Origin: Octopus sinensis
Taxonomy: Eukaryota
NCBI RefSeq assembly: GCF_006345805.1
Contig: NC_042997.1
Span: 136,462,001-136,526,000, forward strand
DNA length: 64,000 nucleotides
Direction: 5' to 3'
The first letter of the stretch is position 1; each line of letters begins with the position of its first letter. Shown here in pieces: positions 2,615 to 62,860 of this stretch. Under the pieces are notes generated by a model. It was not told the DNA's origin, searched no databases, and worked only from the letters and a program-made list of their open reading frames with translations. The translations under genes and the position numbers were made by a program.

Positions 2615-3486
2615 AAATCAACCACTTTTTACAAAGGAATAAGTTTCCCACTGAAGTTTACTTTGCTTTCAGAGTCGATATATTCGACTGTGCCCCGATC
2701 CTGGCATTTGAAGTTTCTAAACCATCAATATACGAATGGTAAGTGCACCTTGATAATTACCACCTCCCGATTAGTAGATAGAATGCAAAATGGCCAGACT
2801 GTCGTACAAACTACATCCCAAACTGAGTATTGATGAGTGAAATATAGTTTTCATAGATAGAGACTGTATATTTAGAACAGCAAGTGTGGGCCATGACGCG
2901 TTTGTCATGGAACAACAACAACTATTTTATTAAAGCATTCTCTATATCTTACTTAACAAGGATATACTATAGATAGCCAGACAACTACAGTATTCGTCTC
3001 AAGGAAGCTTTTCGTATAAGCGTATAGTACTAAAGAGTACATAGGTATATCATTAGCAGACGGAAAGTGTTCAGCAGCGGCGGTGAAATTGCTAAATCTA
3101 GATTTATGCTTCTTTTAGCGTCATCAGTAGCGTGATAAAGTATCCACTAACAATCGCATGCTTAGACAAATCTAGCTTCTACTGATATATAAAAGAACAA
3201 TAATTAACAAATATCTGATGTTGCAAAGAACCAGCAGGCTAGGTAAAAGCAAAATTCGTTGTTAGCAACGGACGCAGTAATAGTTCAAAATAGCATTCTG
3301 TATACATTATTTTATAATGTTTCTTATAACGGAACGGTGATTGCTTGAACTGTAGGTATCCTCTACTTTCGATCGTTGTTTTCCACAACACACACGAAGA
3401 AGCTATCTTGAGTATCAAAAGTTTGTTGGTTCTTTTTATGTCGGCCAGTCATTTCTATTTTTCCTCTGCTTAATGTCACCCATAAT
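2615..3486 (-). mobile_element. Probable Penelope-like 3' end/pLTR insertion bounded by a 52-bp direct repeat
   Basis: Direct repeat at 2563-2614 and 3487-3538. Internal degenerate hammerhead at 3091-3131 (-). Confidence 0.5.
3091..3131 (-). ncRNA. Degenerate minimal type I hammerhead ribozyme
   Basis: GCUA CUGAUGA c GCU-aaaaga-AGC a UAAA UCUAGA UU UAGC. 4-bp stem I, palindromic stem III, GAAA changed to UAAA. Confidence 0.55.
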
Positions 3487-3515
3487 TATTTCAAATATAT
3501 GTATCAATTATACAT

Positions 3516-3850
3516 ATACGTAGTTTGATCAATAAATATCCAGACTGTTGCCATTGTAACGACGCTAAAGCACGTAGAATAAGGCTGCTTTGCACAGATT
3601 GACCTTGAACTCTGCTGTGCATGCGCACTAAGTTTTATCGTTCTAGCTCACTTCCCCTGTTTACAGCAGTACATGGAAGGAACGTGTGTAGCGTGTGATT
3701 GTCGCATTGACCATGACAGAGAAAGCTGAGCAGAGAATCTGCATCAAATTTTGACAAAAGCTTCGTGATACCTGTTCAGCGGCCTACACAAAGTTGCAGA
3801 AAGTGTATGGAGAGGAGTGCATGAGCTGCACATATGTGTACTAGTGGTTC
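3516..3850 (+). mobile_element. mariner 5' fragment (TIR plus N-terminal HTH pseudo-ORF)
   Basis: TACGTAGTTTGATCAATAA end. From about 3713 reads MTEKAEQRICIKF*QKLRDTCSAAYTKLQKVYGEECMS. Confidence 0.8.
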
Positions 3851-10571: not shown

Positions 10572-10790
10572 AAGCAGCGAGTTGGCAGAATCGTTAGCGC
10601 GTTGGACGAAGTGCTTAGCGGTATTTCGCCCGTCGCTACGTTCTGAGTTCAAATTCCGCCATGGTCGACTTTGCCTTTCATCCTTTCAGGGTCGATAAAA
10701 TAAGTACCAGTCGAGCACTCGAGTTGATGTAATCGACTAGCCCCCTCCCCAAAAATTTCAGACCTTGTTCCTATAGTAGAGAGGAATAAT
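10572..10790 (+). mobile_element. SINE family A copy
   Basis: Full A/B box head and tail as at 819-1032. Confidence 0.85.
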
Positions 10791-11224: not shown

Positions 11225-11623
11225 CCACTCCTGTTACTGTTACCGCTGCTGTTGTGGTTGTTTAACAAGTATTGGTTGCTGATATTGCTGTTTTGGCAGA
11301 GAAGCATTTTTTTCTAAAACTGCATGTGTGCATACATATATGTGTGCGTGCGCGTGTGTACGTGTCTGTTTCGGGGTGGGGGCGTGTGTGTAAAGATATT
11401 CACAACACAGCAAAAATATAAAAACAAACTTGTAAGAAAATAAACAATAAAAATGTTATCTATCATTTGAACGGTAAAGAGGATACTAATTAAATATACC
11501 TGCATGTGGCTATGGTATTAAGAAGTTTGTTTTAGATCCCTGTGTTTTCAGTTTCGATTCCACTGAGCAACACTTTAGACAAGCGTCTTCCAACATAACT
11601 TTGTGTCAATATTTTTATGAAAG

Positions 11624-11922
11624 AAGGCCGGCGAGCTGGCAGAAGCGTTAGCACGCAGGGCGAAATGCGTAGGCGTATTTCGTCTGCCGTTACGTTCTGA
11701 GTTCAAATTCCGCCGAGGTCGACTTGCCTTTCATCCTTTCGAGGTCGATAAATTAAGTACCAGTTACGCACTGGGGTCGATGTAATCGACTTAATCCGTT
11801 TGTCTGTCCTTGTTTGTCCCCTCTGTGTTTAACCCCCTGTGGGTAGTAAAGAAATAGGTATTTCCTCTGTCTTTACGTTCTGAGTGGAAATAAGCCCATT
11901 GTGTGTGTGTGTGTCTGTGTGT

Positions 11923-14639: not shown

Positions 14640-15207
14640 ACATTCACTCTCTGCATGCAATTAGACTCGGAAAGTTCGTGAGGAACCCATTGACCCAATT
14701 TGCTGACTTTTCCGATAGCACACAGGTGTCAATGAATGGTTGAATGACCAAATCCAAGCTTCTCTGCTAGTTCCTCAACAGTTACGATGAGATTTTGTTC
14801 CACCAGGGTTTTCAGGATGTCCTTGTCGAGTTCTACAGATCTTTCAGGATGAGGCTCGTCTTCTAGGCTGTAGTTTATGGCTCGGAATTTCTGGAACCAC
14901 CATTGACACTGCCTTACGCTTATTGTCCAATCCCCATATACTGCATTAATATTTCTTGTACTTTCCGTTGCGTTGTTGTCTTTATTGAACTCATAAAGCA
15001 AAATATGCCAAATATGCTCCTTTGTTACTTCCAATATAGCTTTGAAAAAAATAGCTGTTAAAATCGAAATGCACTCTTCAAAACTTGCACTATGAATAAG
15101 GACAAGATAAAATTACTACCTGCTTTTATAGCAAGATAATATAAGTAGTTTATCCCATTCCCCTCTGACTTTTAGTTCAAGCTGTTGAAAAAACCGCATT
15201 ATTATAT
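14640..15207 (-). mobile_element. mariner 5' remnant (Mos1-type HTH, ORF 14729-15034)
   Basis: MEVTKEHIWHILLYEF...NATESTRNINAVYG...QWWFQKFR...SLEDEP...ELAEKLG. Confidence 0.85.
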
Positions 15208-29984: not shown

Positions 29985-30625
29985 GTGTGTGTATGTGTGT
30001 GTACATGTATATATGTATGTGTGTGTATGTATATATATATGTGTATGTATGCAACGGTGTACGTATAGATTCAAATATGTGTATACATCTACTTGTATGC
30101 GTACGAGTTTGTGCAGTCATCGGTGGCTGCTGCTTGATGAACCGACAACCCAGCGTGCTATAGATAAAGCACACGCCACACAGCCTTTCACGTGACAACT
30201 ACCCTAACTTTAAAATAACTGTGATGACAGACTTTTAATATATTTATCTTCCGATCAAAAATTATAGAAATTACACCCGACATAGACCAGGATGAGTGTG
30301 GGTACCTACGTCTCTGTGTGGGTGTGTGGGTGTGGGTATGTATGTGTGGGTGTGCATGTGCGTGAATGTGTGCGTATGTTCCTATACGCATCCCAACCCG
30401 TGTTAGCAAGTGTAGTTACCTTGCCTCGCTTCAAACTTAATGCAATCTAATCCTTCCTTTACAGGTCTCATCCTATCTATGTCGCTCTCCCGTTTACTTC
30501 CCCTTGTAAACTTTTCCTTTTTTCTTTCTTTCGTGTCTATAGTTTATGTGTTTGTATTTACAATTATTTGCTATTATTTGTTATGAATATTTAATATAAG
30601 GACAATTGTAGCAATGCCTCATCCC

Positions 30626-33266
30626 TAACTGAAGCAGAAGCAATCCAAAAAGCAGAAATCCCCGGAATCCCTGGGTGCATAGAACACGCATTTTCCTTCT
30701 GGGAAGCCATCACCTGTGCAAAACAAATGAAGAAAAACCTGTATATTGTTTGGCTAGATTTTGCCAATGCTTATGGATCTGTTCCGCACGCAATAATAAA
30801 AACAGCGATGGACTTCTTTTGGATTCCAAAAGATGTTCAACGAATGCTCATGTCGTACTACGACAACCTGAGGATGAGATTTACAGCAGGAAAGTTCCCA
30901 ACGGAGTGGCAACGGCTTAAAATTGGTATTGCAGCCGGATGCACGATATCAGTCATCTTATTCGTGCTAGTCATAGAAATGCTACTCAGATCTACAAACT
31001 GTGAGAAAGCTGTTACGAAGACAGCTTTTATGGACGACGTAACTATATTATCGGAAAGTAGAGAAGCAGCAGAGGGAACGTTAGAGTGGTTGGACGAACT
31101 GATAGGATGGGCAAGGATGAAATTCAAAGCCAAAAAATCTCGAAGCGTGGCTTTCGTGAAAGGAAGGCAAGAAGAAGTGAAATTCAGGATAGGAAGTGAA
31201 GACATACCAACGGTGAAAGAACAACCAGTAAAGAGTCTCGGCAGATGGTATAGAGATTTATTAAATGATAAGAAGCAACGGAAAGAAACACACGAGCTAG
31301 TAGAACAAGCATTAAAGGCAATTGACAGAACAACGCTGCCGGGAAAATTCAAATGTTGGTTACTGCAATTTGGGCTGTACCCAAGAATAATGTGGCCATT
31401 GCAAATGTACGAAATAGCCTCTAGCAGAGTAGAAAGGATGGAGCAAAGATGCAGTGTGTTTATCAGAAAATTACTTGGTCTGCCGAAACCACTGAATACA
31501 ACTGCACTATATGGAAAACCCGTGCTGCAACTACCAATAACATCAATCGCCGAAGAATATAAGGCAGGAAAGGCAAGGACAGTAATGATGCTAAGGTATT
31601 CAAAAGATCAGAGCATCCGGGAAAACCCTCTAAAGGTACGAACAGGGAGGAAATTGAAGGCGGAAGAGGCAGTAAACAGGGCGATCGGAAAACTAAGGCA
31701 CGCAGATATAGTCGGAGCGACGCAAGAAGCTAGAACCAGCCTAGGGTCGCAAAATTTTCAGGCCATTTTGCAAGAACAGTGTAAAAGAGATGAAAGAGGC
31801 AGTGGTATACGAAGTGAGAAAGCAGGAAGAAGAAAGGCCAAATGTACATTTGGTGCAATGCAGTCAACGGGGACAGTGCCTGAGATGGGAGGAATATGTG
31901 ATCAACCGCAGAATATCATGGAAGGAACTTTGGGCTTGGGAACAAGCAAGAACATCCTTCCTGATCAAGTCTACCTTCGACGTTCTACCCTCACCGGCGA
32001 ACTTAGTTCGGTGGAACATAAAAACAACTGATGAGTGTAGATGCGGAGAGAAAGTGATGGTTAGACATGTTCTGTCAGGTTGCAGACTAGCACTTGAAAG
32101 ATATATATGGCGGCATAATCAAGTCTTAGGCGTCATAAGTGCAGCACTCAAGGAGAAGATCGGGAGGTACAATAGGGGAGAGTACCTAAAAGTAGAAAAG
32201 CGTAGGAATGTATACTTCCACAAGGAGGGAAAAGGTTATAAAACCAGGCCTACAAGTAAAGTATACGAGATAGACGAAAGATGGAAGGGATACTGGGAGG
32301 TGGCCACGGATTGGAAAGACAAGTAATATTTCCACTAATAAAAACAACAAAATGACCGGATTTAGTTCTCTGGAACAGAGACCGGAGAATGGGGATTTTA
32401 CTAGAACTGCCAGTACCTTGGGAAGAGGACAGCGGCAATGCAGAGGTACGAAAGGAGAAGAGGTATGAAAAGCTAATCGAAGAATACAGAGAACAGGGAT
32501 GGAATGTCGAATATTATCACCTGGCAGTGGGGGCTAGAGGCTTCATTGAAAGGAAAATGACAACGCTTTTCAAAAGAAGATTTGTTTTTTCTTGCCCCGA
32601 GCTGCGTAAACTAATAAGGAGAGTACAGGAGGCGGTCGAAAAAGCCAGCTTCTATATATGGCTGAAGCGGGAAGACCGAAAATGGCTTGAAAGTCATAAA
32701 CATCCCGACGGGAATTAATATAATTAGGTGAGACAAGCTGACTGAATCAGCTTCGCTGACAGACAGGTGACGGTCGTTTACAAAAAGCGCGGGCTAAAAC
32801 TACGCGCCTTCAATAGTCAGTTAAGGTGAGTCAGTGTCACGTGACAACTTGCTGGGACTGTCTGCTGGAGTCTATGCGGCAGGTATTTAAAGGGAAAAGT
32901 TTGACAAGTCAGTCAGTCACCGGTTGACACTCGCTGACGATACATCGAAGAGGCCAGGGAACAGAAGGAAGAAGAAGAAAGAAGACATGCACTCAACACC
33001 AGAGCTGAAGACACCTCCGAAAGGGGGGGGCGCCACGTCAAAACGGTAGAGGAGTCGGGGCTGAAACCGGACGCGGTTCCTCATGATGATGTCTTGAGCT
33101 AACTGGATCCTATAATGTAACTGTTGTGGTAGCAGACCACGAAACACGGTTGTAATTCCTCCATGACCGTCCAAACTCAACACTTTTAGTGAGACACCAC
33201 TCTATGTATGAATGTACTTGATGTAACCCATGCTTCAAAATTGATGCAACACAATATGATGCACAA
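30626..33266 (+). mobile_element. 5'-truncated RLE-type non-LTR retrotransposon (HERO-like, R2 group)
   Basis: QKAEIPGIPGCIEH, WLDFANAYGSVPH, GIAAGCTISVILF and FMDD (RT); C-x-C...H-x4-C knuckle with WRHNQVL; PDLVL...LLELPVPWEE (RLE). A few frameshifts and stops. About 550 bp of 3' UTR. Confidence 0.9.
30727..32718 (+). pseudogene. RT, zinc knuckle and RLE ORF of the HERO-like element, split over ORFs 30727-32031, 31790-32326 and 32389-32718
   Basis: Frameshift near 31760 and stops near 32325-32355, with motifs continuing across frames. Confidence 0.88.
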
Positions 33267-44476: not shown

Positions 44477-45200
44477 TCGTCGTCGTTGGCGTTTTATCGT
44501 GTGTCCGATAATTAATTTGGTTTCTTCTTGACCACATCTTCCCCTCTGTCCGTGTTTATGCCTCTGATGACTAATGAGGCAAATTCTTTCATGGAAGTAT
44601 CTGTTGCAAAGTCACAAGGGATCCGTGGTGGAAGCTTTGGTTTTTGCAGCCTCCATTTTCTTTCTTGTCGATTCTCTTCCTCTTTCCTCTGTCGTTCAGC
44701 TTCAAAATGATCTGTCACAGTGGAGAGGAAATTATGCCATCCGGCCTGTCCTAAGCTTCAATGTCCCAGGCTTTGCTTCATCTGATCCTTGTATCGACGG
44801 AGGGGACGGCCACGATGTCTTCTTCCAGTGGAATGTTCACCGTATAAATTTTGACGTGGCAGCCTAGTTTCTTTCATTCTTGCTACGTGGCACGCCCATC
44901 TCACACGATGTTTCAAGATGGTAACCTCGATGCTGCTGCTTTTCGTTCTCTCCAAAACGGAGACATCGGTTACATAGTCGTTCCATTTAATATTCATAAT
45001 AGAGCAAAGCTTCTGTTGGTAAAATAGCTCTAGTTTTTGACGTCAATTCAGTAAAGAGTCCAGGTTTCTCAACCGTAGAAGAGAGTGGAGATCATGACTG
45101 CTTGGTAGACACTTTTGTTTTCTGGTTCAGATCTTTGTTCTTAAAGACCCTTTTTGTTCTTAAAGACCCTTTTTGCGAGTCCACCAAACGTGGTGTGAAC
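44477..45200 (-). mobile_element. RTE-clade LINE 3' remnant
   Basis: NIKWNDYVTDVSVLER...RWACHVARMKETRLPRQNLYGE...GRPLRRYKD, with a short (CGA)n tail near 44480. Confidence 0.85.
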
Positions 45201-45329
45201 GCTTTTAATCAGTTCTCCATGATGTGCACTGATTCTATCACTGTTGATAGAGTAACTCTTATTCAATATAACGGTATTACTCAACATAGTTTCCATCACA
45301 AGCGATGCATTCACTTCATCGTTAAACTC

Positions 45330-46465
45330 AACTCTCGAATCATCTTTGAAAAATGTCAGGAGTACTATGTTATACTCACTTTCACACGTCTGTGTCTCAT
45401 AAAATCGTTACTTCTGGTTCGATTACACTGTCCTTCATTGTACCAATAAGGTGGAAGTCAGTCGACGCCTGACCTGCGTTGTTGTTCCATGAATGGAGAA
45501 GCAGTGACCCGACCAATTTGCCGATTGCCTGATTTGTTGTCAGTGACGTGTATATCACTTATTGCCATATTCAATGTGGATCATTTTCAGATTCTTCCTT
45601 GGTCTCTTCCTCCTAATGGCTTCTCTAAGCATTTTGAACGTCTCAGTGTACAGCTCGCTGTTCACAGTCATGTTCCAGAAAAGCAGAACAACGACGCCCT
45701 TGCCATGCAAAACAAAAAGTTACCACGACTTTCTGTGCCGATCGCTGATTCTGTAACTTATGCATTATAGGAGAGGTATGATGCTATTCCATGGACTGAT
45801 CCTTCACTTCTCGATCATAAAGATGCACCCACAGTTCATTCCCTATCACCATAATGGGAAAAAAACATATCTTCCTCGGCTTCGAATTCTTCCTGCAGAT
45901 CAGTGCAGACTTCCACATGCCTCTCCTTTAAATCGCATGTCATCTATCGACGTGTCTACTGTGCACACACTTTCCAATACCCAAAGTCTTCCAACCATTT
46001 TCTGTAATGCATTGTGACCACACAGTCTAGTTGTCTAGCAAGCACATGGATTGGGATTCGTCTGTTCGTGCAAATCAAGTCATCCACCCCCTGATGAATC
46101 GTGTCTGTGGTCGAAGTTGATGATTCCCCATTGCATTTGTTAATCTTCTATGCTGGTTTTCCCTTTTTTTAAACTTATCAATCCGTCTGTGCACGTCGCT
46201 CTTACCAATGATAGCATCTCTGTAGCCTTCTGACGCCTGCATCCCTCCTTCATCAAAACCTTAATGATACATCCCTCCTGCATCAAAACCGTAATGATGG
46301 TGCATTGCTTCTACTGGTAACTGATTATTTTCCTGCAGTTAATGCGAACAGGAAGAAAAACTACTATAGAGGAAGAGTTTTCTACCAGTTTGTGTCGTTT
46401 GTATGATCTATGTAAGTTAATAAAAAGTTACGCCCACATTCACATTACTTTTTGGGCGACACTTG
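45330..46465 (-). mobile_element. Decayed mariner remnant
   Basis: STDFHL (SPDLAPSDFHLF-like) near 45450-45470 and a TIR-like TTACTTTTTGGGCGACACTTG followed by TA. Confidence 0.55.
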
Positions 46466-48415
46466 TACATAGTCCGGGTTGTACTTAAACTATGAACATA
46501 TATATTTCTAAATTAAGAGTAATAATATGACTGACACTAATTACTACTAATAGTATATTCAAGATCAAAGATAATTCTTAATTCAGATCGCAAATGAAAC
46601 CTTTATTGCATTTTCTTATTAAATTTCGTTCAAGAAGATAGAGGTGAACTGAATAACATTATGTCTAAACCGATTCTGTTAAGATGCGACAGCAAGAACG
46701 TAAAATTATCTTACTATATAAGTAAACGGTAACCAGAACTCAAAAGCATTTCTCTTCTTCCATTAGTTGAATGCATTAGCTTAAATTAATTTTCAACAGT
46801 TGCAGAATCTTATGACACATGCAAGTGTTACTGTATCTTCAAAAGAGATGTTTGCCAGTCATTGACATTCACACAGAGCAGTTAATATTTTGATCATTCA
46901 AATATTAAACCCGTCTTTCACCGCAAGTATTTAACCTATCTGTAATCACTGGCGCTTTAATTTGTTTAACAAACCAGTTTTTGTTTTGCTTTTAATTCCT
47001 CTTTCGTCATTTAATTTATTCTGTTTCACGTAGTCTTGCCGATGTATCATATTATATTTTCTCTTAAAATTTAATTTAATGGACACAATTTCCTTATAAA
47101 TGTTGTGGCAGCTGTTCTAAATCGATTTTTTTTTCCAGTTCTTAGTGTCGAGTTATTAAGTCTTGTGGAAGAGGGATATAATTAATTGTACTAATACATA
47201 TGACATTTATCAGTTTGACTTGGTAGTACCTAGTTATTTTGGTAATATATTTTCCATTGTTGCGTTTTGATAACGTACCAAACTTTAAAAAAACTAATCT
47301 ATAATAGTTATAACATGAATGATAATTCTGTTATATCTTAATCTTAAACTCAATCAGGCACTCATAATATAATTAGTTTTCATTTCTTTCTACGTGCAAA
47401 CTATGCTTGTTTCTTTTAAATTTCACTTAATCTAACGTCGAAATACAAAATATTATCTAATTTAATTTATTGTATTAGGAAAATGGGCTTAATCCTTCCC
47501 TAAAGTAATGAGGATTTAAAACATAAAGACTATGAAATACCACGCATTTTTGTTACACTTGTGAATGAAAACAAATATAACAAGTATTCATAGATTACTT
47601 AGAACCTAACGACAGACCAACAGAACGCCTACATTAAGTTTTAAATTCTTTTGAACTTACTATTACTCTCTTTACTCGATCGTCACACCTTAAAACCTTC
47701 TAATGGTTAATTCATAAACTATGAAATCTCGCCTTTCTCTTTTGCAAGTGAAATCCATTTGCAAGTGAAATCCATAATAACTCGTGTGGTTATTTTCTTC
47801 AACCTACTATTCTTCGAAAGAGAAAGCGAGAATCTCGTATTACATAGAATTGTTGGTGAACTTCTTGAAAACTATACTTCTATGCTGTATGTTAAACGAA
47901 TGTGATGCATGCCAAGTTCATCTATTTCCAAATTCCCCATGTGATAGGGGTGGTATGAGGATATGAACTCAATACTGTCAATGGATCTGAAGGATTTCGT
48001 CAATTGTACAAGGTGTCCATAAAGTCTCTTTACAATTTAAAAAGTTTATTACAAAGGCAAATAATGGGATATGATTATCAGATTTGTTCTATGTACTCCA
48101 TGGTTATCAAAGTTTTTAACCACATTGCATTTTGTGTTTTTTATGTACCCTATTGATGGAAAGGGATCCGTTAAATGAAAACCTTAAAAAAATGGCTACT
48201 CCTCAAGAAAAGGCACAATGTGTATTTTGGTTTATTGAAACAAAATCGTACATGCAGATCCAGCGAAACTACAGGATTAAGTATGGAAGACATCCACTGT
48301 CAGGCACAAGAAATTTATGGAAACAGGAACAATGTTAGATAAAGGGAAGAGTGGCCGATCAAAATTATTTTCGGAAAACGTTGGTCATGTAAGACAAACT
48401 TTTGCTACAGTTCTA

Positions 48416-48593
48416 TTTTTAAGAGATGAGGAGTTATGTACATTATTTAGATTATTTACATTTTACGGATATTTGTCCTCATCTTGTTTGTTGTTAACAC
48501 AAAGTTTCGGCTGATATACCCTCCAGCCTTCATCAGATGTCTTGGAGAAATTTCGAACCTGGGTTCTCATTCCTAAGGTATTTTTCGATGTTG

Positions 48594-48658
<65 letters not shown>

Positions 48659-48688
48659 TAGGTCACTGCCTTAATAATAATAATAATA

Positions 48689-48726
<38 letters not shown>

Positions 48727-48867
48727 GTAACATCGAAAAATACCTTAGGAATGAGAACCCAGGTTCGAAATTTCTCCAAGACACCTGATGAAGGCTGGAG
48801 GGTATATCAGCCGAAACGTTGTGTTAACAACAAACAAGATGAGAACAAATATCCGTCAAATGTAAAT
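48416..48867. mobile_element. Palindromic hammerhead-bearing insertion (PLE pLTR-like)
   Basis: Arms about 48454-48659 and 48672-48867 with an (ATT)n/(AAT)n centre. Imperfect flanking duplication TTTTGCTA(CA)GTTCTA. Confidence 0.85.
48780..48825 (+). ncRNA. Minimal type I hammerhead ribozyme (mirror copy at 48496-48541 on -)
   Basis: GACAC CUGAUGA a GGCUG-gaggguauau-CAGCC GAAA CG UU GUGUU. 5-bp stems I and II, loopless palindromic AACGUU stem III. Confidence 0.82.
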
Positions 48868-51800
48868 GAAGTTTTTGCTAGTTCTACAAAGAGTTCTACA
48901 AAGGTACTGCTGCCAGACAGTTACCAACTTCAACAGTGCACAGAGTCCTACATAAGAGCTTGTGATTGTACGCTTACAAAGTGCTACTTTTACAGGCACT
49001 CGAACCAAATGATATACCAAGACGAAAAGAGTTTGCAGTTAACATGCTGGAACGAATTTCTGGGGATGCAGCGTTCCTCACCCGAATTTTTTTTAGTGAT
49101 GTGGCAACCTCTCATGTTTCAGGGAAACATAACACACATAATATGAGGACCTGGGGATCAGAACATCCCCATAATACCCCATGTGACTAGGGAACTTCAC
49201 CGAGATAGTCCAAAGGTGAATGTCTGGTGTGGGATGATGTGCAATCGAATCATTGGTCCATTTTCCTTCCCAGAGAGATCAATTTCTGCAAATGTTTACT
49301 TTGACCTTTTGACTGAATATGTGGCATCACAACTGGATGACCTTCAACCACTCATCATTTTCCAGCAGGATGATGCACCACCACACTCGGAACTGCATGT
49401 TCGTGGGTTCCTAAATTAAACATTTCCAGACCGGTGGATTGGAAGGGATGGCCCAATTCCCTGGAAACATCATTCGCCGGACGTCAATCCCTGGACCTTT
49501 TTCTATGGTGTTATGTTAAAGACATTTTGTATCGAACAAAGATACGGAACATCAATGACCTGAAGCAAAGGATCACTGATACCATTGCCACCATTGATAA
49601 GGCTGTGCTCCAGTGAACATGGTAAGAAATTGATTACCGTCTTGATGTGCTTCATGCTACTAATGGTGCCCATATAAAGATGTATTAAATGAAACAAAAA
49701 CCTTCAATACCTACTCCTCATTTTGTAATGATTTCCATTGATTTATCTGTTTATTTGCTTTTGTAATAATTCTTTGAAATTGTAAAGAGACTTTTTGGAC
49801 ACCTTGTATACTGCCCCCACCTGTTTTCAGCAATTAGTTAGCATTTACCTATTGTCTGTTAGCAATTAGTTAGTGCTTACCTGTTGCCACAAAGATCACA
49901 GGAGCGTCAATAATAAAGTGTCCCTAACACATTCTCAATGCAGTGGCCGGATATAAACATACATTTCTTTTGGTATTCTGACGCCTTGTTGAGTCGGCTG
50001 AGTTTCTCTTTTTCTTCAAAAGTGTAACAAAATATTCATTACTTCTGACAAATGTATTGTTTTTGCTGAGTCTTGTGAGGCAAGAGGTACACACTGAGCA
50101 AGATTCGCATCACGGTTTCATTTCCTAGTTAAAGTCATTTCACTTCGTCTGTGTGATTAATGCCTTTGGGACAGACATTTATGTTACAACACCTTATACC
50201 CACTAACATGTAGCATCTTTTGTAGCTCATCAACTTAAATATATTTATTGTTCGTGTAGCTAGTGCTGTGGAGTAAGAGCTAGAGTTGTAACAAGCCAAG
50301 TTCGCCATGTGGTTTCATATCCTATTGGTTGGACCCTATGAGCCCTCGATGTGTTAAGTCCATGATACGATTTCAATCCCTGATTCAAAGAATTTCATTC
50401 AAATCAATAATACTCTCCGGAAAAGATATAACTATCATGATTTCACTCTCGAAGTATATAGAGCATTCCTAAATAATCAAAAGAGATTAACTCAGGGTCA
50501 AATTCCACAGCGTTCTATTAGTAACAAATTTAAATTACGGTTTGTTTCCCCTACTTTTTTTAACCAGAGGAAGTCACTAAGAAAATTATTGATTCTTGTA
50601 TTTATGAGTGTAATTTTAATTAATTGAAACTTCTTGGCTCATTAATTTAAGTATGTTAGCGCTCTCTTTTTCGAACATATTTATAGCTCCCATTTTTATC
50701 ATTTGTTTTTGGCGGGCATTATAGAGTGACGTGTTTACCTGAGGCTATTGAAAAAAAGCTTTAAATTCTCAGTTTACTCTCCTCTAAACAAAGGTTTGGT
50801 GTATGTTACGACTAAGTGTTGCCATCCGATAATGTTTTCTGCATCAAATGTCTCTGCTTTGGGATTGCGAACTTTGAGGAGATAGGGCAACCAATCTTAA
50901 GAAGATCGCTAAAACCTTTGTTTTATAATATCAATTCTGTTTCTAATAGGCAATAAGTAACCTTTGTGCCTTTCTCAAATGAATCATCAACGTAAATAAC
51001 AGGAAATGCTTTCAACCGGAGTTAAAACTATATGATGTTTTTGTTTATTATTACCTGTTAGTAATAAAATAAATAACTAAAACATGGCGACAAAGAAGTA
51101 AACTTCCAGCTAGTTTAAACTGCAAAAATGTTTTATTTCCTGATTCACAGGGCTGTTTTTCTTTCTTCTAAAATATATTTCATCAAAAGAAAGCTCGTAT
51201 CGCGTGAGGAGAATGTGGCGAAGTTCTTGAAGTTCAGTTACTACCAAGGGTAGGTTGTTTTTTATTCACCCAAGCTCTATATTCGATTGTTTGCAGTGTC
51301 ACGTCCCTTTAACAGTTAACTTTGTATCTAAATAAGCTGGAATCATAGGGCAGTAAAGGCCATGTTAACCGAGTTCGCGAACAAGTTTCAATTCTCGACT
51401 CAAACTATACAACTAAATACCTCTTTATGATGGTATGAATATCCTACGACCTTATTTTCCTCACATTATACATTTGCGACCTTGTGACTACGACATCAAA
51501 AAATAACACAGTATATGGCACTTTAATTCTGTTTAGCTGCTTACATTCTTTTCCCTTTTTAATATATATTTAAAGAGAAAAATGTGCAATGTGTCTCAGA
51601 TGTTTGATGTTTTTTTTTTGCTTTTTTTTACTTATTTAGAATGACTTGCTAGCTTTTACCAAAAGGATCTAAAATTTCATAATTGTATAAAGATAAGGCT
51701 ACTACGTGGTGTGGAGGAAGAGGTTTCGTATCGTAAATTACTGTGTGTTAGAATTATCATTGTGGCAAAACTTATAAGAACAAAAATAAATTTCAATTTT

Positions 51801-53089: not shown

Positions 53090-53780
53090 AAGGTCAGCAA
53101 TTGGTACTTATTTTATCGACCCCGAAAGGATGGAAAGCAAAATCGACCTTGGCGTCGTTTTTTGAAGTCAGAACATAAGGACGAACTAAATGCCGCTAAG
53201 CATTTCGCCAGGCGTGCTCACGATTCTGCCACCTCGCCGCTTTGATCTTTGTATTAAATGAAGATTATAATAACTAAAATATATAATTCCAGAGAGATTT
53301 GTACTCAAGCTGGAGAGTCGGTACCCAGCGCAATTAAAAGCAAGCCAATGAGAAAGTCTCTCTGCGGTCAGTCGACCTTCTAGAAACAACAGTCAAATCT
53401 CCATCTAATCAATTATTTCGTGTTTACAAAAAAAGGGAAGTGATAAGAAAAGATGGGTTGGTCACCACTGTAATTCCATTTCTTTATCGTAGGTCTGCTC
53501 GATCAGACTTATGATAAAAATATTTTCCACGCCGTCCAAACCAACTATTACACGAGTCAATAATCCTCTCTACTGAAGGAACAAGGCCTTGAAATTTGGG
53601 GGAGGGGACTAGTCGATTACATCAAGCCCATTGTTTTACTGGTACTTAATTTATCGACTCCGAAAGAATGAAAGGCAAAGTCGACCTCGGCGGAATTTGA
53701 GAATTCAGAACGTAGCAGCAGACGAAATACTGCTAAGCATTTCGCCCGGCGCGCTAAGCACTCTGCTAGCTCACCGCCTT
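53090..53780 (-). mobile_element. Two SINE family A copies (53090-53240 and 53565-53780)
   Basis: Reverse complement of the family A sequence. Confidence 0.8.
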
Positions 53781-54914: not shown

Positions 54915-56040
54915 GTAGGGATTATGGGGATAGCAGGTTACTACCTGTAACTTTAGTTATCCACAAGTTTTCTGCAGTCTTTAAGTGCTTGGGGCCCTCC
55001 TGATAATCCTTGCTGTCCCTAAGAAACAAAAGTTTTGTAGAAAATCTCCCGGGCATTCTATTTTAATCTCCCTCAGCCATTTCTCTGTATCTTGGCTTTC
55101 TGATCCCAGCGCACCAATTATTATAGGCACGACCTTCAATGTTCGCATGCTCCAAATTCTTCCTATTTCAAATCTTAGGAGATTGTGCTTTCTTCTTCCT
55201 CTTTCTTTACGATCCTGGAATTAAATGGGCATGATGGGTCGATAAGTAAGTTGCTTCGTTTTTGCTTATCTATGATTGTAATATCTGGTTTTCTAATTTC
55301 TTGTCCGTTTGAATCGGAAACTCACACAAAATCTTACATCTCTCCAACTCTAGTATTCTTTCGACTTGATGGAATTTTCCAGTGTAAAACTTTAACACCT
55401 GGTTGTGCCTCCATTTCTTATATTCTTCCACTTCTTATATTCTTCTTGTTCCAAGTACCACAAGCTTTACATTTTTCTGACACATTTTCTTCATATATAT
55501 TTTTCTCAAGTTGTTTATTTTTATCACTTGGTCTTGAGCTGCTACAATTAGGCTTTGTTTTTTTTTATTTGTTTTATTTTATTGCCCCTTTTTTTAACCA
55601 AACCCAGGATTTTGCTCTACATACGTCTTCAGTGTATCTCCCAAATTGGCCATGCAGAGGATTCTCTTCGATCTATCTAACATGTTCTCTTTGTATTTTA
55701 TTCTTGTCCTTTTCTCCTATTACCCGCCTATTTACCTGTTCTTTCTTAACTAACTTTAGTAGTTTTTCTGTACTGCTCTATAAATACCCTACTAGACTTT
55801 TTCCATCTGTACACATTCTTCTACTGCTATTAAGCCTCGTCCATCCTGGTCTCTCCTCAATCTCCTCAAGTAGAGCCGGTTAATATCAGCTTTCGGATGG
55901 TGGGCTACATACATCGTCAACAACTTCCTAGTTTTTCTGTCAAGTTTCTTTATTTCTTTTCTGATTCAGTCTATTATTCCAACTCCATATATAATTAAGG
56001 GTACTGCTCTTCAATTTATTACTTCACTGAGATTTTTGTA
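54915..56040 (-). mobile_element. R4/Dong-like RLE LINE 3' remnant
   Basis: KLDRKTRKLLTMYVAHHPKADINRLYL, GRGLIAVEEC, LHGQF and RKPDITIIDKQKRSNLLIDPSCP (PD..D nuclease). Confidence 0.8.
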
Positions 56041-57429: not shown

Positions 57430-57870
57430 TCCTATTTTGGCACGAGGCCAGCAATTTCGGGGAAGGGGCTAAGTCGATTATATGGACCCTAATACTCAAC
57501 TGGTATTTATTTTATCGATCTCGAAAGAATGAAAGGCAAAGTCGGCCTCGGCAGAATTTGAGCTCAAAACATAAGGACAGACAAAACACTACTAAGTATT
57601 TTGTCCGACGTACTCACGATTCTACCAGCTCGTTGGCTTAATAATAATAAAAATAATCCTTCTACTACAGGCTCAAGGTCTGAAATTTTGGGGGAGGAGA
57701 CTAGTCGTTAACATTGACCCCAGTGTTTCACTGGTACTTAATTTATCGACCACGAAAGAATGAAAGGCAAAATTAACCCCGGCGAAATTTTAAGTCAGAA
57801 GGTAAGAACGGTCGAAGTGTCGCTAAGCATTTTGCCCGGCATGCTAACGATTCAGCCTGTTCACCGCCTT
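57430..57870 (-). mobile_element. Two tandem SINE family A copies
   Basis: 57430-57640 and 57655-57870, separated by (AAT)n. Confidence 0.8.
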
Positions 57871-60929: not shown

Positions 60930-62860
60930 TATAAAATAGTAACTTTATCAGAGAACACTATTTCAACGACAAAAATTAACATACAAACAAAAGGACTAAA
61001 ATTTATCAGAAACCCACGCAGAGCTAATCAGAATGAAATCAAAGACAATATTATGTAATTTTGCTGAAAGTTGTGACTTACAGAAGCACTACTTTAACTA
61101 TAGTAACGATGACGACTCACTTGTTAAGAACAAAAGCAAATATCTTCCACCAAAGAATAGGAATAAAACACTCGATGACTTTTGCTTCCACATTCTTGAT
61201 TTCCTTTATAATACTTCACACAAACAAAGAATTAACTCAAACCTTAGTACTACTCATGGGAAAAAATCGCAAAACGATGAAGAATTGACAGTTAAAGAAA
61301 CCGATAAAGAGAGTGTTGTAGTGATGGACAGAGAATACTACAAAAACCTAATGCTGCACATGCTAGAAAATGATTCCTGCTACGAGAAGTTTGAAAACTA
61401 TAAATAACAGAAAATAATGAGAACATTTTCGTCCCTCATGAAAAGGATCTGACAATCAAATTGACAACATAACCAATTTTAAATGTAAACCGAGTCTTTT
61501 CTAAGGTTTACCAAAAATACACAAAAGCCAAATGATTAATAACGCTTGCAAAGAATCATCAGACTTAAACATTAATGTCCAATCACCACGTGATTTAAAC
61601 TGGCCCATCGTGTAAAACATACTATTTAAGCAACTTCCTTCACATCCTACTGAAATCCCTTCTGAAGTATATTAAAAGTTTCATTAGAGACGATCTAAAT
61701 ATACTAAATCACCTCCCACAAACAATCAATGAAGAGACGGTCATGGTATCCGTTGATGTTGTGAACCGATATACTAATATCTCACACGACTATGGAAGAA
61801 AGCTATCCAGAACTACCAGGATGCATCAACAAGGAATTTGTAATTGAAACATCCAGAATAATTACTTCATGTTTGCTACCAATTAGTACTGGCAGGAACT
61901 TGGAATTGCGATGGAAACAAAAGCAGCCCAGTTCTTGCAAACCAATAACAGAGTATTTAGAATTTACTGTATATCAAGCATCACTACAAAAATATGAATG
62001 TTCCTTTTACCAGTATATAAGGGAGAACTGGAGAGGATATCTGGATGACTGTTTCTCCTTTGAAATGAGATTACTGATAAACGATTCGAATTTAAAATAC
62101 TGATCAGTGGTATAAATACTAATATCCAATTCACAATGGAAATCAATAAAGAGAAACTTCCATTTCTTGATTCTTTAATGAAAAAAATGTCAATAACCAA
62201 ATTGAAGCCGACGTCTATTATAAATCCACAGATTCGAAGCAATACATACTATTCAGCTCATACAACCCGAAACACATTAAAATAAATATCACTTTCAATT
62301 TAGTGAAAAGGATTTATACAATAGTGTCTGATAAAAATACTCGGGACCTACGACATACTCGTCGAGAGAAATTATCCATTTTCACAAACAGATGATGGAA
62401 TAAAACGTGCCAAGAGAATTGATATCCAAACACTAAGAGAAGTAAAACGAAATAACATACCCAATCTAAAAATCCTACCTTACATATCTACCAAGACCCT
62501 AAGAACAATGAAGCGTATAATACTATTATTCAAAATTTACATACACTCACTAGGGACTATACGCTAGTTCAAATTTTCGGTATACTCAAGTTCATTGAAA
62601 GCAAAAAACAACACAACCAAAATCACTGAAGAAATCACTGACAGGTACAACATTATACCCAGCAAAAACAGAACCAGAGTTAAACAATGCGGGCGACCTA
62701 ACTGTGGGACATGTCCCAACCTACTGGAAGGTTCGAAGAGCAAAGATTCAAAATTAAGACTGAGTTTACTTAATGTACGTCATAACTTGTTCGGGATGTG
62801 GACACAATTATATAGGGCAAGCAAGAATGTTTCACAGACGGAGGAAAATATGTATATATT
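60930..62860 (+). mobile_element. Penelope-like element remnant (RT plus GIY-YIG)
   Basis: KETDK..VVVMDREYY, GLPKIHK, DVVNRYTNI, YLDDCF, IQFTME...LPFLD, YYKSTD, CGRPNCGTC and TCSGCGHNYIGQ. Many frameshifts. Confidence 0.88.

What the first reader, a model, noticed from the sequence alone, without database searches (positions are those of the whole stretch)
48416..48867. Palindrome with mirror-image hammerheads inserted into a DD41D transposase
Arms of about 200 bp put a hammerhead on each strand, so a transcript in either direction contains one ribozyme and its antisense. The + copy is intact (predicted cut after 48820, GUU). The - copy has GAAACUUU, which breaks the AACGUU palindrome. The insertion interrupts the transposase after RQTFA and has an imperfect 14-16 bp duplication, so it appears to have moved as a unit after the DNA transposon arrived. 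The long hairpin would mask the ribozyme and could be an ADAR or Dicer substrate (inference).
Basis: partly seen in the sequence, partly recalled or inferred. Interest (0 to 1): 0.72.

Follow-up and report, generated by a model that had tools for sequence, protein, structure and literature searches.

The report
Back-to-back Penelope retroelement ends inside mariner
The mirror-image sequence is real but ordinary: it is two ends of a very common Penelope-type jumping gene, set head-to-head inside an older dead DNA transposon, and the mirror was likely built during insertion by copying the element's RNA from both cut DNA strands.

Summary
The palindrome, both hammerhead motifs, the cut site after 48820 and the host DD41D mariner are confirmed. 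The insertion runs 48408-48867, and the left arm has a 48-nt tail that the right arm lacks. Each arm is the terminal repeat (pLTR) of a Penelope/Poseidon-type retroelement with at least 3,284 candidate copies; longer copies carry a reverse transcriptase and a GIY-YIG-like end. Head-to-head pairs are the family's usual form: 19 of 29 insertions in a sample not chosen for pairing. Of 60 pairs, 56 have exactly one tail and 39 a clear target duplication. This matches published PLE insertions. The palindrome did not move as a unit: six other copies with this centre have different ends. The plus-strand hammerhead is a minimal, dimer-type motif, so it is not expected to cut alone. No RNA evidence was found for ADAR or Dicer action. 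The one twist is a tRNA-like segment in the family's pLTR, where 35 of 45 copies begin, suggesting SINE-like RNA polymerase III transcripts; this copy has lost it. The scan noted this family and architecture before on other DNA.

The parts
48007..49808 (+). Old, broken DD41D-type Tc1/mariner transposon (TA, inverted ends, about 1.3 kb without the insertion); the target
48396..48407 (+). Left copy of the 12-bp target-site duplication; its last TA is shared with the tail end
48406..48453 (-). Tail: 48-nt extension present on the left arm only (arm positions 138-185)
   Evidence: loose ends pile up at 48406 and 48451 in four DNA-type runs
48454..48590 (-). Left pLTR arm, including the first codons of the PLE ORF
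48497..48540 (-). Minimal type I hammerhead, damaged (GAAACUUU; C-to-U in stem I)
48591..48656 (-). (AAT)n/(AAC)n tract of the left arm; part of the element, between tRNA-like head and arm
48657..48671 (-). Centre: last ~15 nt of the tRNA-like head of the left arm; CCT at 48669-48671 is shared with the start of the right arm (3-nt microhomology)
48672..48730 (+). (AAT)n tract of the right arm
48731..48867 (+). Right pLTR arm without tail (ends at arm position 137); predicted ORF start ATG at 48751
48781..48824 (+). Minimal type I hammerhead with intact core and loop-less palindromic stem III; predicted cut after 48820
48869..48880 (+). Right copy of the target-site duplication (10 of 12 identical to the left)

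Best explanation
The palindrome is a pair of 5'-truncated terminal repeats (pLTRs) of an endonuclease-bearing Penelope/Poseidon-type retroelement, set head-to-head in an older mariner, and it was likely built during one insertion by two priming events. Shown: the arm is the element's pLTR, one arm has the tail, a 12-bp duplication flanks the pair, and the arms meet at a 3-nt microhomology. Inferred steps: (1) the element's endonuclease cuts both strands about 12 bp apart; (2) one 3' end primes reverse transcription at the tail end of the RNA (arm position 185) and the other at the inner site (position 137); (3) both copies run towards the RNA 5' end, usually on the same RNA or on RNAs of one source, and are joined by microhomology. 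The hammerhead is the ordinary PLE minimal motif, predicted to need a partner RNA or the PLE protein. This copy has lost the tRNA-like promoter segment and is likely dead; any read-through RNA is predicted to fold into one long hairpin that silences the ribozyme.
For: Arm family: 3,284 first-look candidates. In 22 of 24 other loci picked by the endonuclease end, the tRNA-like head follows it, and in 20 of 24 the arm follows. RT: Pfam RVT_1 E 5e-10 in L072. In 3 of 3 long copies examined the arm runs through the tail into the ORF N-terminus. An inverted partner arm lies upstream in 20 of 29 other best copies and in 19 of 29 insertions picked only by a subfamily marker. Of 60 distinct pairs, 56 have exactly one tail (36 of 39 among pairs not picked for a tail); 3' ends fall at 135-159 or 176-185 with none at 160-175; a flank duplication scores >=9 in 39 of 60 against 1.6% of mismatched flanks. 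The tail arm is 5'-longer in 19 and the tail-less arm in 22 of 56 pairs, 15 unclear; a copy folded back from a tail-primed cDNA cannot give the 22. Partners share the subfamily base at arm position 59 in 11 of 14 cases against 17% (26 of 153) background. Literature: inverted 5'-truncated copy plus 30-40 bp tail (PMC8557442, PMC3846280); both strands cut and extended, two RT start sites bounding the tail (PMC11167929); minimal hammerheads, some 100-700 bp apart on opposite strands (PMC4209133).
Against: No experiment; the mechanism is inferred from copy structure. Pfam gave no GIY-YIG hit for the two endonuclease pieces; that domain is called from motifs I recall. Rfam finds no hammerhead. The tail here is 48 nt, a little longer than the 30-40 bp reported. 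14 of 60 pairs have a duplication score under 8. Clade placement rests on recalled motifs, not a tree. 3 of 14 partners lack the subfamily base, so one RNA is not always the template. The left junction was not seen in run contigs.
Confidence: 0.82

Rival explanations
1. The palindrome is a mobile unit of its own (MITE-like or palindromic retroposon) that is copied whole.
For: Six other loci have the same centre; in three of them the tail is on the same side as here; arms of a pair share variants more than random pairs do, 19 versus 9.2 +- 2.7.
Against: None of the six has this copy's pair of ends (185/137), and in two the tail side is reversed or absent. Centres and inner ends vary across copies. 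The centre is a CCT microhomology that can recur. No TA duplication or transposase ends flank the insert.
Confidence: 0.04
2. One cDNA (or an antisense RNA) folds back and copies itself, as proposed for rotifer Penelopes (self-priming).
For: The pLTR begins with an imperfect hairpin and about 10 of 30 head-picked copies are joined there; arms mostly share a template; PMC3846280 reads junction palindromes as self-priming.
Against: The tail-less arm is the 5'-longer one in 22 of 56 pairs; the second arm stops at the inner start zone rather than at the junction; L200 has arms of two subfamilies at both marker sites. Self-priming on an antisense RNA is not excluded by these counts.
Confidence: 0.1
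3. The hairpin is a host-selected RNA device (ribozyme switch, or source of small RNA or A-to-I editing).
For: A read-through RNA is predicted to fold into a very stable hairpin; the arms differ at only 4 of 137 sites.
Against: Arm divergence from the family majority (1.5%, 3.8%) is near the family median of 4.2%, so there is no sign of selection; one ribozyme is broken; no host exon was identified near it in an ORF scan.
Confidence: 0.03
4. Assembly or library artefact (fold-back read).
For: Palindromes are prone to such errors; the left junction and centre were not seen in run contigs.
Against: The arms differ at 4 sites and in length; different mariner halves flank them with a target duplication; one run contig crosses the right junction without a difference; 60 distinct pairs share the design.
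Confidence: 0.01

Closest known systems
Insertions of EN+ Penelope-like elements with an inverted 5'-truncated pLTR and one tail (Craig et al. 2021, PMC8557442; Arkhipova et al. 2013, PMC3846280)
   Same: Head-to-head pLTRs, tail on one end only, target duplication of about 8-13 bp, pLTR plus tail holding the first codons of the ORF.
   Different: Here no ORF body is left between the repeats; the tail is 48 nt; the family's pLTR holds a tRNA-like segment and an (AAT)n tract.
Poseidon of Anolis, PAc (Frangieh et al. 2024, PMC11167929)
   Same: Hammerhead at the pLTR-ORF junction; two 3' end zones bounding an AC-rich tail; RT followed by a C-terminal endonuclease.
   Different: The predicted ATG here lies 34 nt before the core rather than at stem II; no activity was tested here.
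Minimal type I hammerheads of metazoan PLEs (Cervera and De la Pena 2014, PMC4209133)
   Same: Short stem I, bulged base after A9, G10.1-C11.1 pair, palindromic 15.2-16.2 without loop 3; pairs on opposite strands 100-700 bp apart.
   Different: Stem II is 5-6 bp rather than 7-8; the cleavage triplet is GUU.
Schistosome Sm-alpha/Sj-alpha SINE-like repeats and non-LTR retrozymes (review PMC6765202; bioRxiv 10.64898/2026.07.22.740005)
   Same: Short non-coding units with a type I hammerhead; a polymerase III promoter in the schistosome repeats; proposed PLE origin for retrozymes.
   Different: Those occur as head-to-tail tandems; this family inserts mostly head-to-head, and its autonomous partner with the same segment is present in the genome.

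Membership tests
EN+ Penelope-like element (pLTR fragment) | Linked ORF with PLE-type reverse transcriptase | tested here: met
   RVT_1 E 5e-10 in L072, upstream of the same head and arm; 'PLE-type' rests on recalled motifs
EN+ Penelope-like element (pLTR fragment) | C-terminal GIY-YIG endonuclease | tested here: inconclusive
   No Pfam hit for two short pieces; VYSIPCSC...YKGET...EH motif seen in translations and recognised from memory
EN+ Penelope-like element (pLTR fragment) | pLTR at both ends of the ORF, overlapping the ORF start | tested here: met
   L185 has head+arm before and after the ORF; the arm runs into the ORF N-terminus in 3 of 3 long copies
EN+ Penelope-like element (pLTR fragment) | Optional tail on one end; inverted 5'-truncated copy | tested here: met
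   56 of 60 pairs have one tail; bimodal ends
EN+ Penelope-like element (pLTR fragment) | Placement in the Penelope/Poseidon clade by RT phylogeny | not tested
   No tree built; no reference PLE proteins were fetched
Minimal type I hammerhead ribozyme | Core CUGANGA/GAAA/UH with stems I and II | tested here: met
   Plus copy; 107 of 152 family arms keep CUGAUGA and 20 have CUGAAGA; no Rfam hit
Minimal type I hammerhead ribozyme | Self-cleavage (as dimer or with protein) | not testable with these tools
   No assay; no raw RNA reads offered
tRNA-derived SINE (the family's short copies) | A and B boxes in a tRNA-related head | tested here: inconclusive
   Box-like motifs by eye; best local match to a genomic tRNA-Arg(TCT), score 61 versus shuffle maximum 41, but 13 of 15 tRNAs beat their shuffles; no cloverleaf by ARAGORN or Rfam
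tRNA-derived SINE (the family's short copies) | 5' ends at the head start | tested here: met
   35 of 45 heads that reach position +3 stop between -10 and +3, in samples not picked by the head
tRNA-derived SINE (the family's short copies) | RNA polymerase III transcription | not testable with these tools
   No RNA data; this window copy lacks the head
MITE / fold-back DNA element | Fixed ends and centre shared among copies | tested here: not met
Non-LTR retrozyme | Two or more head-to-tail units each with a hammerhead | tested here: not met
   The units here are head-to-head
DD41D Tc1/mariner (host) | TA target, inverted ends, 41 residues between second and third D | tested here: met
   spacing counted by eye across a frameshift; no Pfam DDE hit on the fragments

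The most novel reading that the evidence does not exclude
This Penelope family carries a tRNA-derived RNA polymerase III promoter inside its own pLTR. It makes short head-AAT-hammerhead-tail RNAs, a SINE born inside its autonomous partner, which the Penelope protein inserts by priming from both cut strands, at times on two different RNAs that could be held together by the palindromic hammerhead stem III.
Probability: 0.45. Interest if true: 0.55.

Novelty: new member of a known kind. Interest (0 to 1): 0.3.

Why it matters
The locus itself is an ordinary PLE insertion. Its family is useful: thousands of short head-to-head copies with target duplications and subfamily markers allow the open question of how PLEs form inverted repeats and tails to be tested by counting. 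The counts here favour two priming events, mostly on one template. If the tRNA-like head is a working polymerase III promoter, the family would link PLEs to SINE-like hammerhead repeats such as those of schistosomes. Such hairpins could also be a large source of double-stranded RNA in the host, which was not tested.

Tried and rejected
Rfam scans found no hammerhead or tRNA; the miRNA-family hits at E about 0.01 are far below their gathering scores and reflect the AT-rich hairpin. ARAGORN found no tRNA in 10 of 10 loci or in the head majority sequence. Pfam on five mariner fragments gave only weak hits. Contigs of runs X1, X2, X3, X5 and X6 could not show the left junction, the centre or an empty site; holes prove nothing. 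Arm site 45 was dropped as a template marker because the samples were picked by likeness to this window's base there; it showed no concordance (17 discordant of 38 against 16.3 expected). Earlier-note look-ups by place and by sequence returned nothing. Lunse et al. 2017 was not held. Searches for a paper on tRNA-headed or SINE-like Penelope elements listed none that describes this; Repbase and Ohshima and Okada 1994 (title only) could not be read, and supplements of the cited papers were not opened, so prior description is not excluded.

Full report
Observation. The inverted repeat is real: arms 48454-48630 and 48691-48867, 96% complementary. Without the microsatellite they align over 137 nt with 4 differences, and the left arm has 48 nt more, ending at 48406. 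The plus strand holds stem I (48781-84/48821-24), CUGAUGA, a bulged A, stem II and GAAAC-GUU, with the predicted cut after 48820. The minus copy has GAAACUUU and a stem I change. Rfam reports no hammerhead. The host is a mariner with TA-flanked inverted ends and D-41-D spacing counted by eye. Fourteen other copies of it lack the arm and are continuous at this site, which fixes a 12-bp duplication, 48396-48407 / 48869-48880, 10 of 12 identical.

What the arm is. A search of the own genome gave 3,284 candidates, 40 scored at 93-100%. Upstream of the arm other copies have an (AAT)n tract, a 76-nt tRNA-like head and, in longer ones, the end of an ORF. Picking loci by that ORF end, the head follows in 22 of 24 and the arm in 20 of 24. 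L072 encodes a reverse transcriptase (RVT_1, E 5e-10) followed by a GIY-YIG-like region that I recognise from recalled motifs; Pfam did not hit it. In three long copies the arm runs through the tail into the ORF N-terminus, and L185 has head and arm on both sides of the ORF. So the arm is a pLTR that includes the ORF start, as in rotifer and anole PLEs (PMC3846280, passages; PMC11167929, main text parts 1-2 of 4). The host is likely an octopus; this rests on a recalled repeat and on earlier notes, not on a call of mine.

The palindrome is the family's normal product. An inverted partner lies upstream in 20 of 29 other best copies, and in 19 of 29 insertions taken in chromosome order by a subfamily marker; four more have an inverted head only. 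Among 60 distinct pairs from the loci L001-L030, L046-L070 and L103-L169, 56 have exactly one tail, 3 none and 1 two; among the 39 pairs not picked for a tail, 36 have one. Arm ends cluster at 135-159 and 176-185 with none between 160 and 175. A flank duplication scores 9 or more in 39 of 60 pairs against 1.6% of mismatched flanks. Craig et al. describe the inverted 5'-truncated copy and the one-sided tail as typical (PMC8557442, passages), and Cervera and De la Pena report minimal hammerheads 100-700 bp apart on opposite strands (PMC4209133, parts 1-2 of 4).

It did not move as a unit. Seven places in the genome match this centre exactly; the six others end elsewhere. The centre is a CCT shared by the two truncated heads, which can recur.

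Mechanism (inferred). The anole PLE protein cuts and extends both strands and starts reverse transcription at two sites that bound the tail (PMC11167929). Two primings, one at each site, followed by a microhomology join, explain the single tail, the duplication and the variable centres. Either arm can be the 5'-longer (19 tail, 22 tail-less, 15 unclear of 56), which a fold-back from a tail-primed cDNA cannot give. Arms of a pair share variants more than shuffled pairs (19 versus 9.2 +- 2.7). Where one arm carries the subfamily base at position 59, the partner has it in 11 of 14 cases that cover the site, against 17% background; L198 and L199 were counted once. So both arms usually come from one RNA or one source. 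Against a strict one-RNA rule, 3 of 14 differ, and L200 differs at both marker sites. Self-priming on an antisense RNA (PMC3846280) is not excluded. That subfamily change, found in 533 exact pattern matches, falls on N7, which I recall as the one free position of the core; this hints at selection for function in source elements.

Ribozyme. Stem III has no loop; only the AACGUU word pairs with itself (-3.5 kcal/mol; AACUUU gives 0). Single minimal motifs showed no cleavage in vitro and dimers little (PMC4209133); the anole motif needed protein and was dispensable for insertion (PMC11167929). A read-through RNA of 48408-48880 folds at -297.5 kcal/mol with the motif paired to its mirror, against -11.4 for the ribozyme stems. 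Masking is therefore predicted, but no transcript was shown.

The twist. The head has A- and B-box-like motifs, matches a genomic tRNA-Arg(TCT) best (score 61, shuffle maximum 41) among 15 distinct tRNAs of 5 amino-acid types besides Arg, most of which also beat their shuffles, and forms no cloverleaf. In samples not picked by the head, 35 of the 45 heads that reach position +3 stop between -10 and +3; the other 14-nt bins lose 3 of 80, 4 of 77, 6 of 73 and 22 of 67. A polymerase III start fits this. A rival is the imperfect hairpin at the head start, where about 10 of 30 head-picked copies are joined to their mirror. In pairs with intact heads the promoters would point outward, so their RNAs would hold one hammerhead and no antisense arm. 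This window copy keeps only about 15 nt of head. Schistosome repeats with a polymerase III promoter and hammerhead are known (review PMC6765202, passages), and retrozymes are proposed to derive from PLEs (bioRxiv 10.64898/2026.07.22.740005, part 1 of 5). Searches listed no paper on a tRNA-headed pLTR; PMC13282606 (passages) and PMC10886601 (reference list hits only) do not mention one in the passages seen. Repbase, Ohshima and Okada 1994 and supplements were not seen.

Earlier notes. I had the pLTR reading before looking. Five notes describe the same architecture, two of them a tRNA-headed family; they are unreviewed and are not counted as support.

Verdict. A real but ordinary, probably dead PLE insertion: new member of a known kind, interest 0.3. 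The family-level tRNA-like promoter and the template counts are the parts worth pursuing.

Noticed in passing
window 48880-48903: 12-bp tandem duplication in the mariner right after the target duplication, replacing about 7 nt of the sequence seen in other copies; a contig of run X2 departs from the window just before 48902, so it may be polymorphic.
   Followed up: partly
window 30595-32715 (+): Broken non-LTR retrotransposon: RT (RVT_1 E 5.5e-18) followed by a zinc-knuckle and PD..D-type endonuclease-like stretch (recalled R2/NeSL/Hero pattern).
   Followed up: partly
window 61000-61404 (+): 135-aa frame resembling the N-terminal region of another PLE clade (recalled motifs); no Pfam hit.
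   Followed up: no
window 14732-15112 (-): Mos1-type mariner HTH fragment (HTH_48 E 5e-20).
   Followed up: no
window 53102-53243 and 53640-53780; also 828-980, 10577-10738, 11623-11856, 57470-57857: Copies of another abundant short repeat; one copy sits inside the 3' pLTR of L185.
   Followed up: no
L071:about 2180-2950 and 3050-3800 (G000:C11): A longer inverted duplication of PLE ORF sequence: the 301-nt query matches twice in opposite orientation 1.2 kb apart at 100%, a very young or artefactual palindrome.
   Followed up: no
L198/L199 (G000:C1:79354066-79357834): Compound insertion with three head+arm units: one inverted and two in direct tandem, the only layout seen here that could give a cis hammerhead dimer besides L023 and L188.
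   Followed up: no
family-wide, arm positions 87-88: The AACGUU palindrome contains a CpG and decays often: 72 of 152 arms keep GAAACGTT, 18 and 12 show the two CpG transitions, 5 have the window's AACTTT.
   Followed up: yes
window 45003-45449 and 54981-55965: Further broken LINE-like fragments on the minus strand; no host exon was identified near the palindrome.
   Followed up: no
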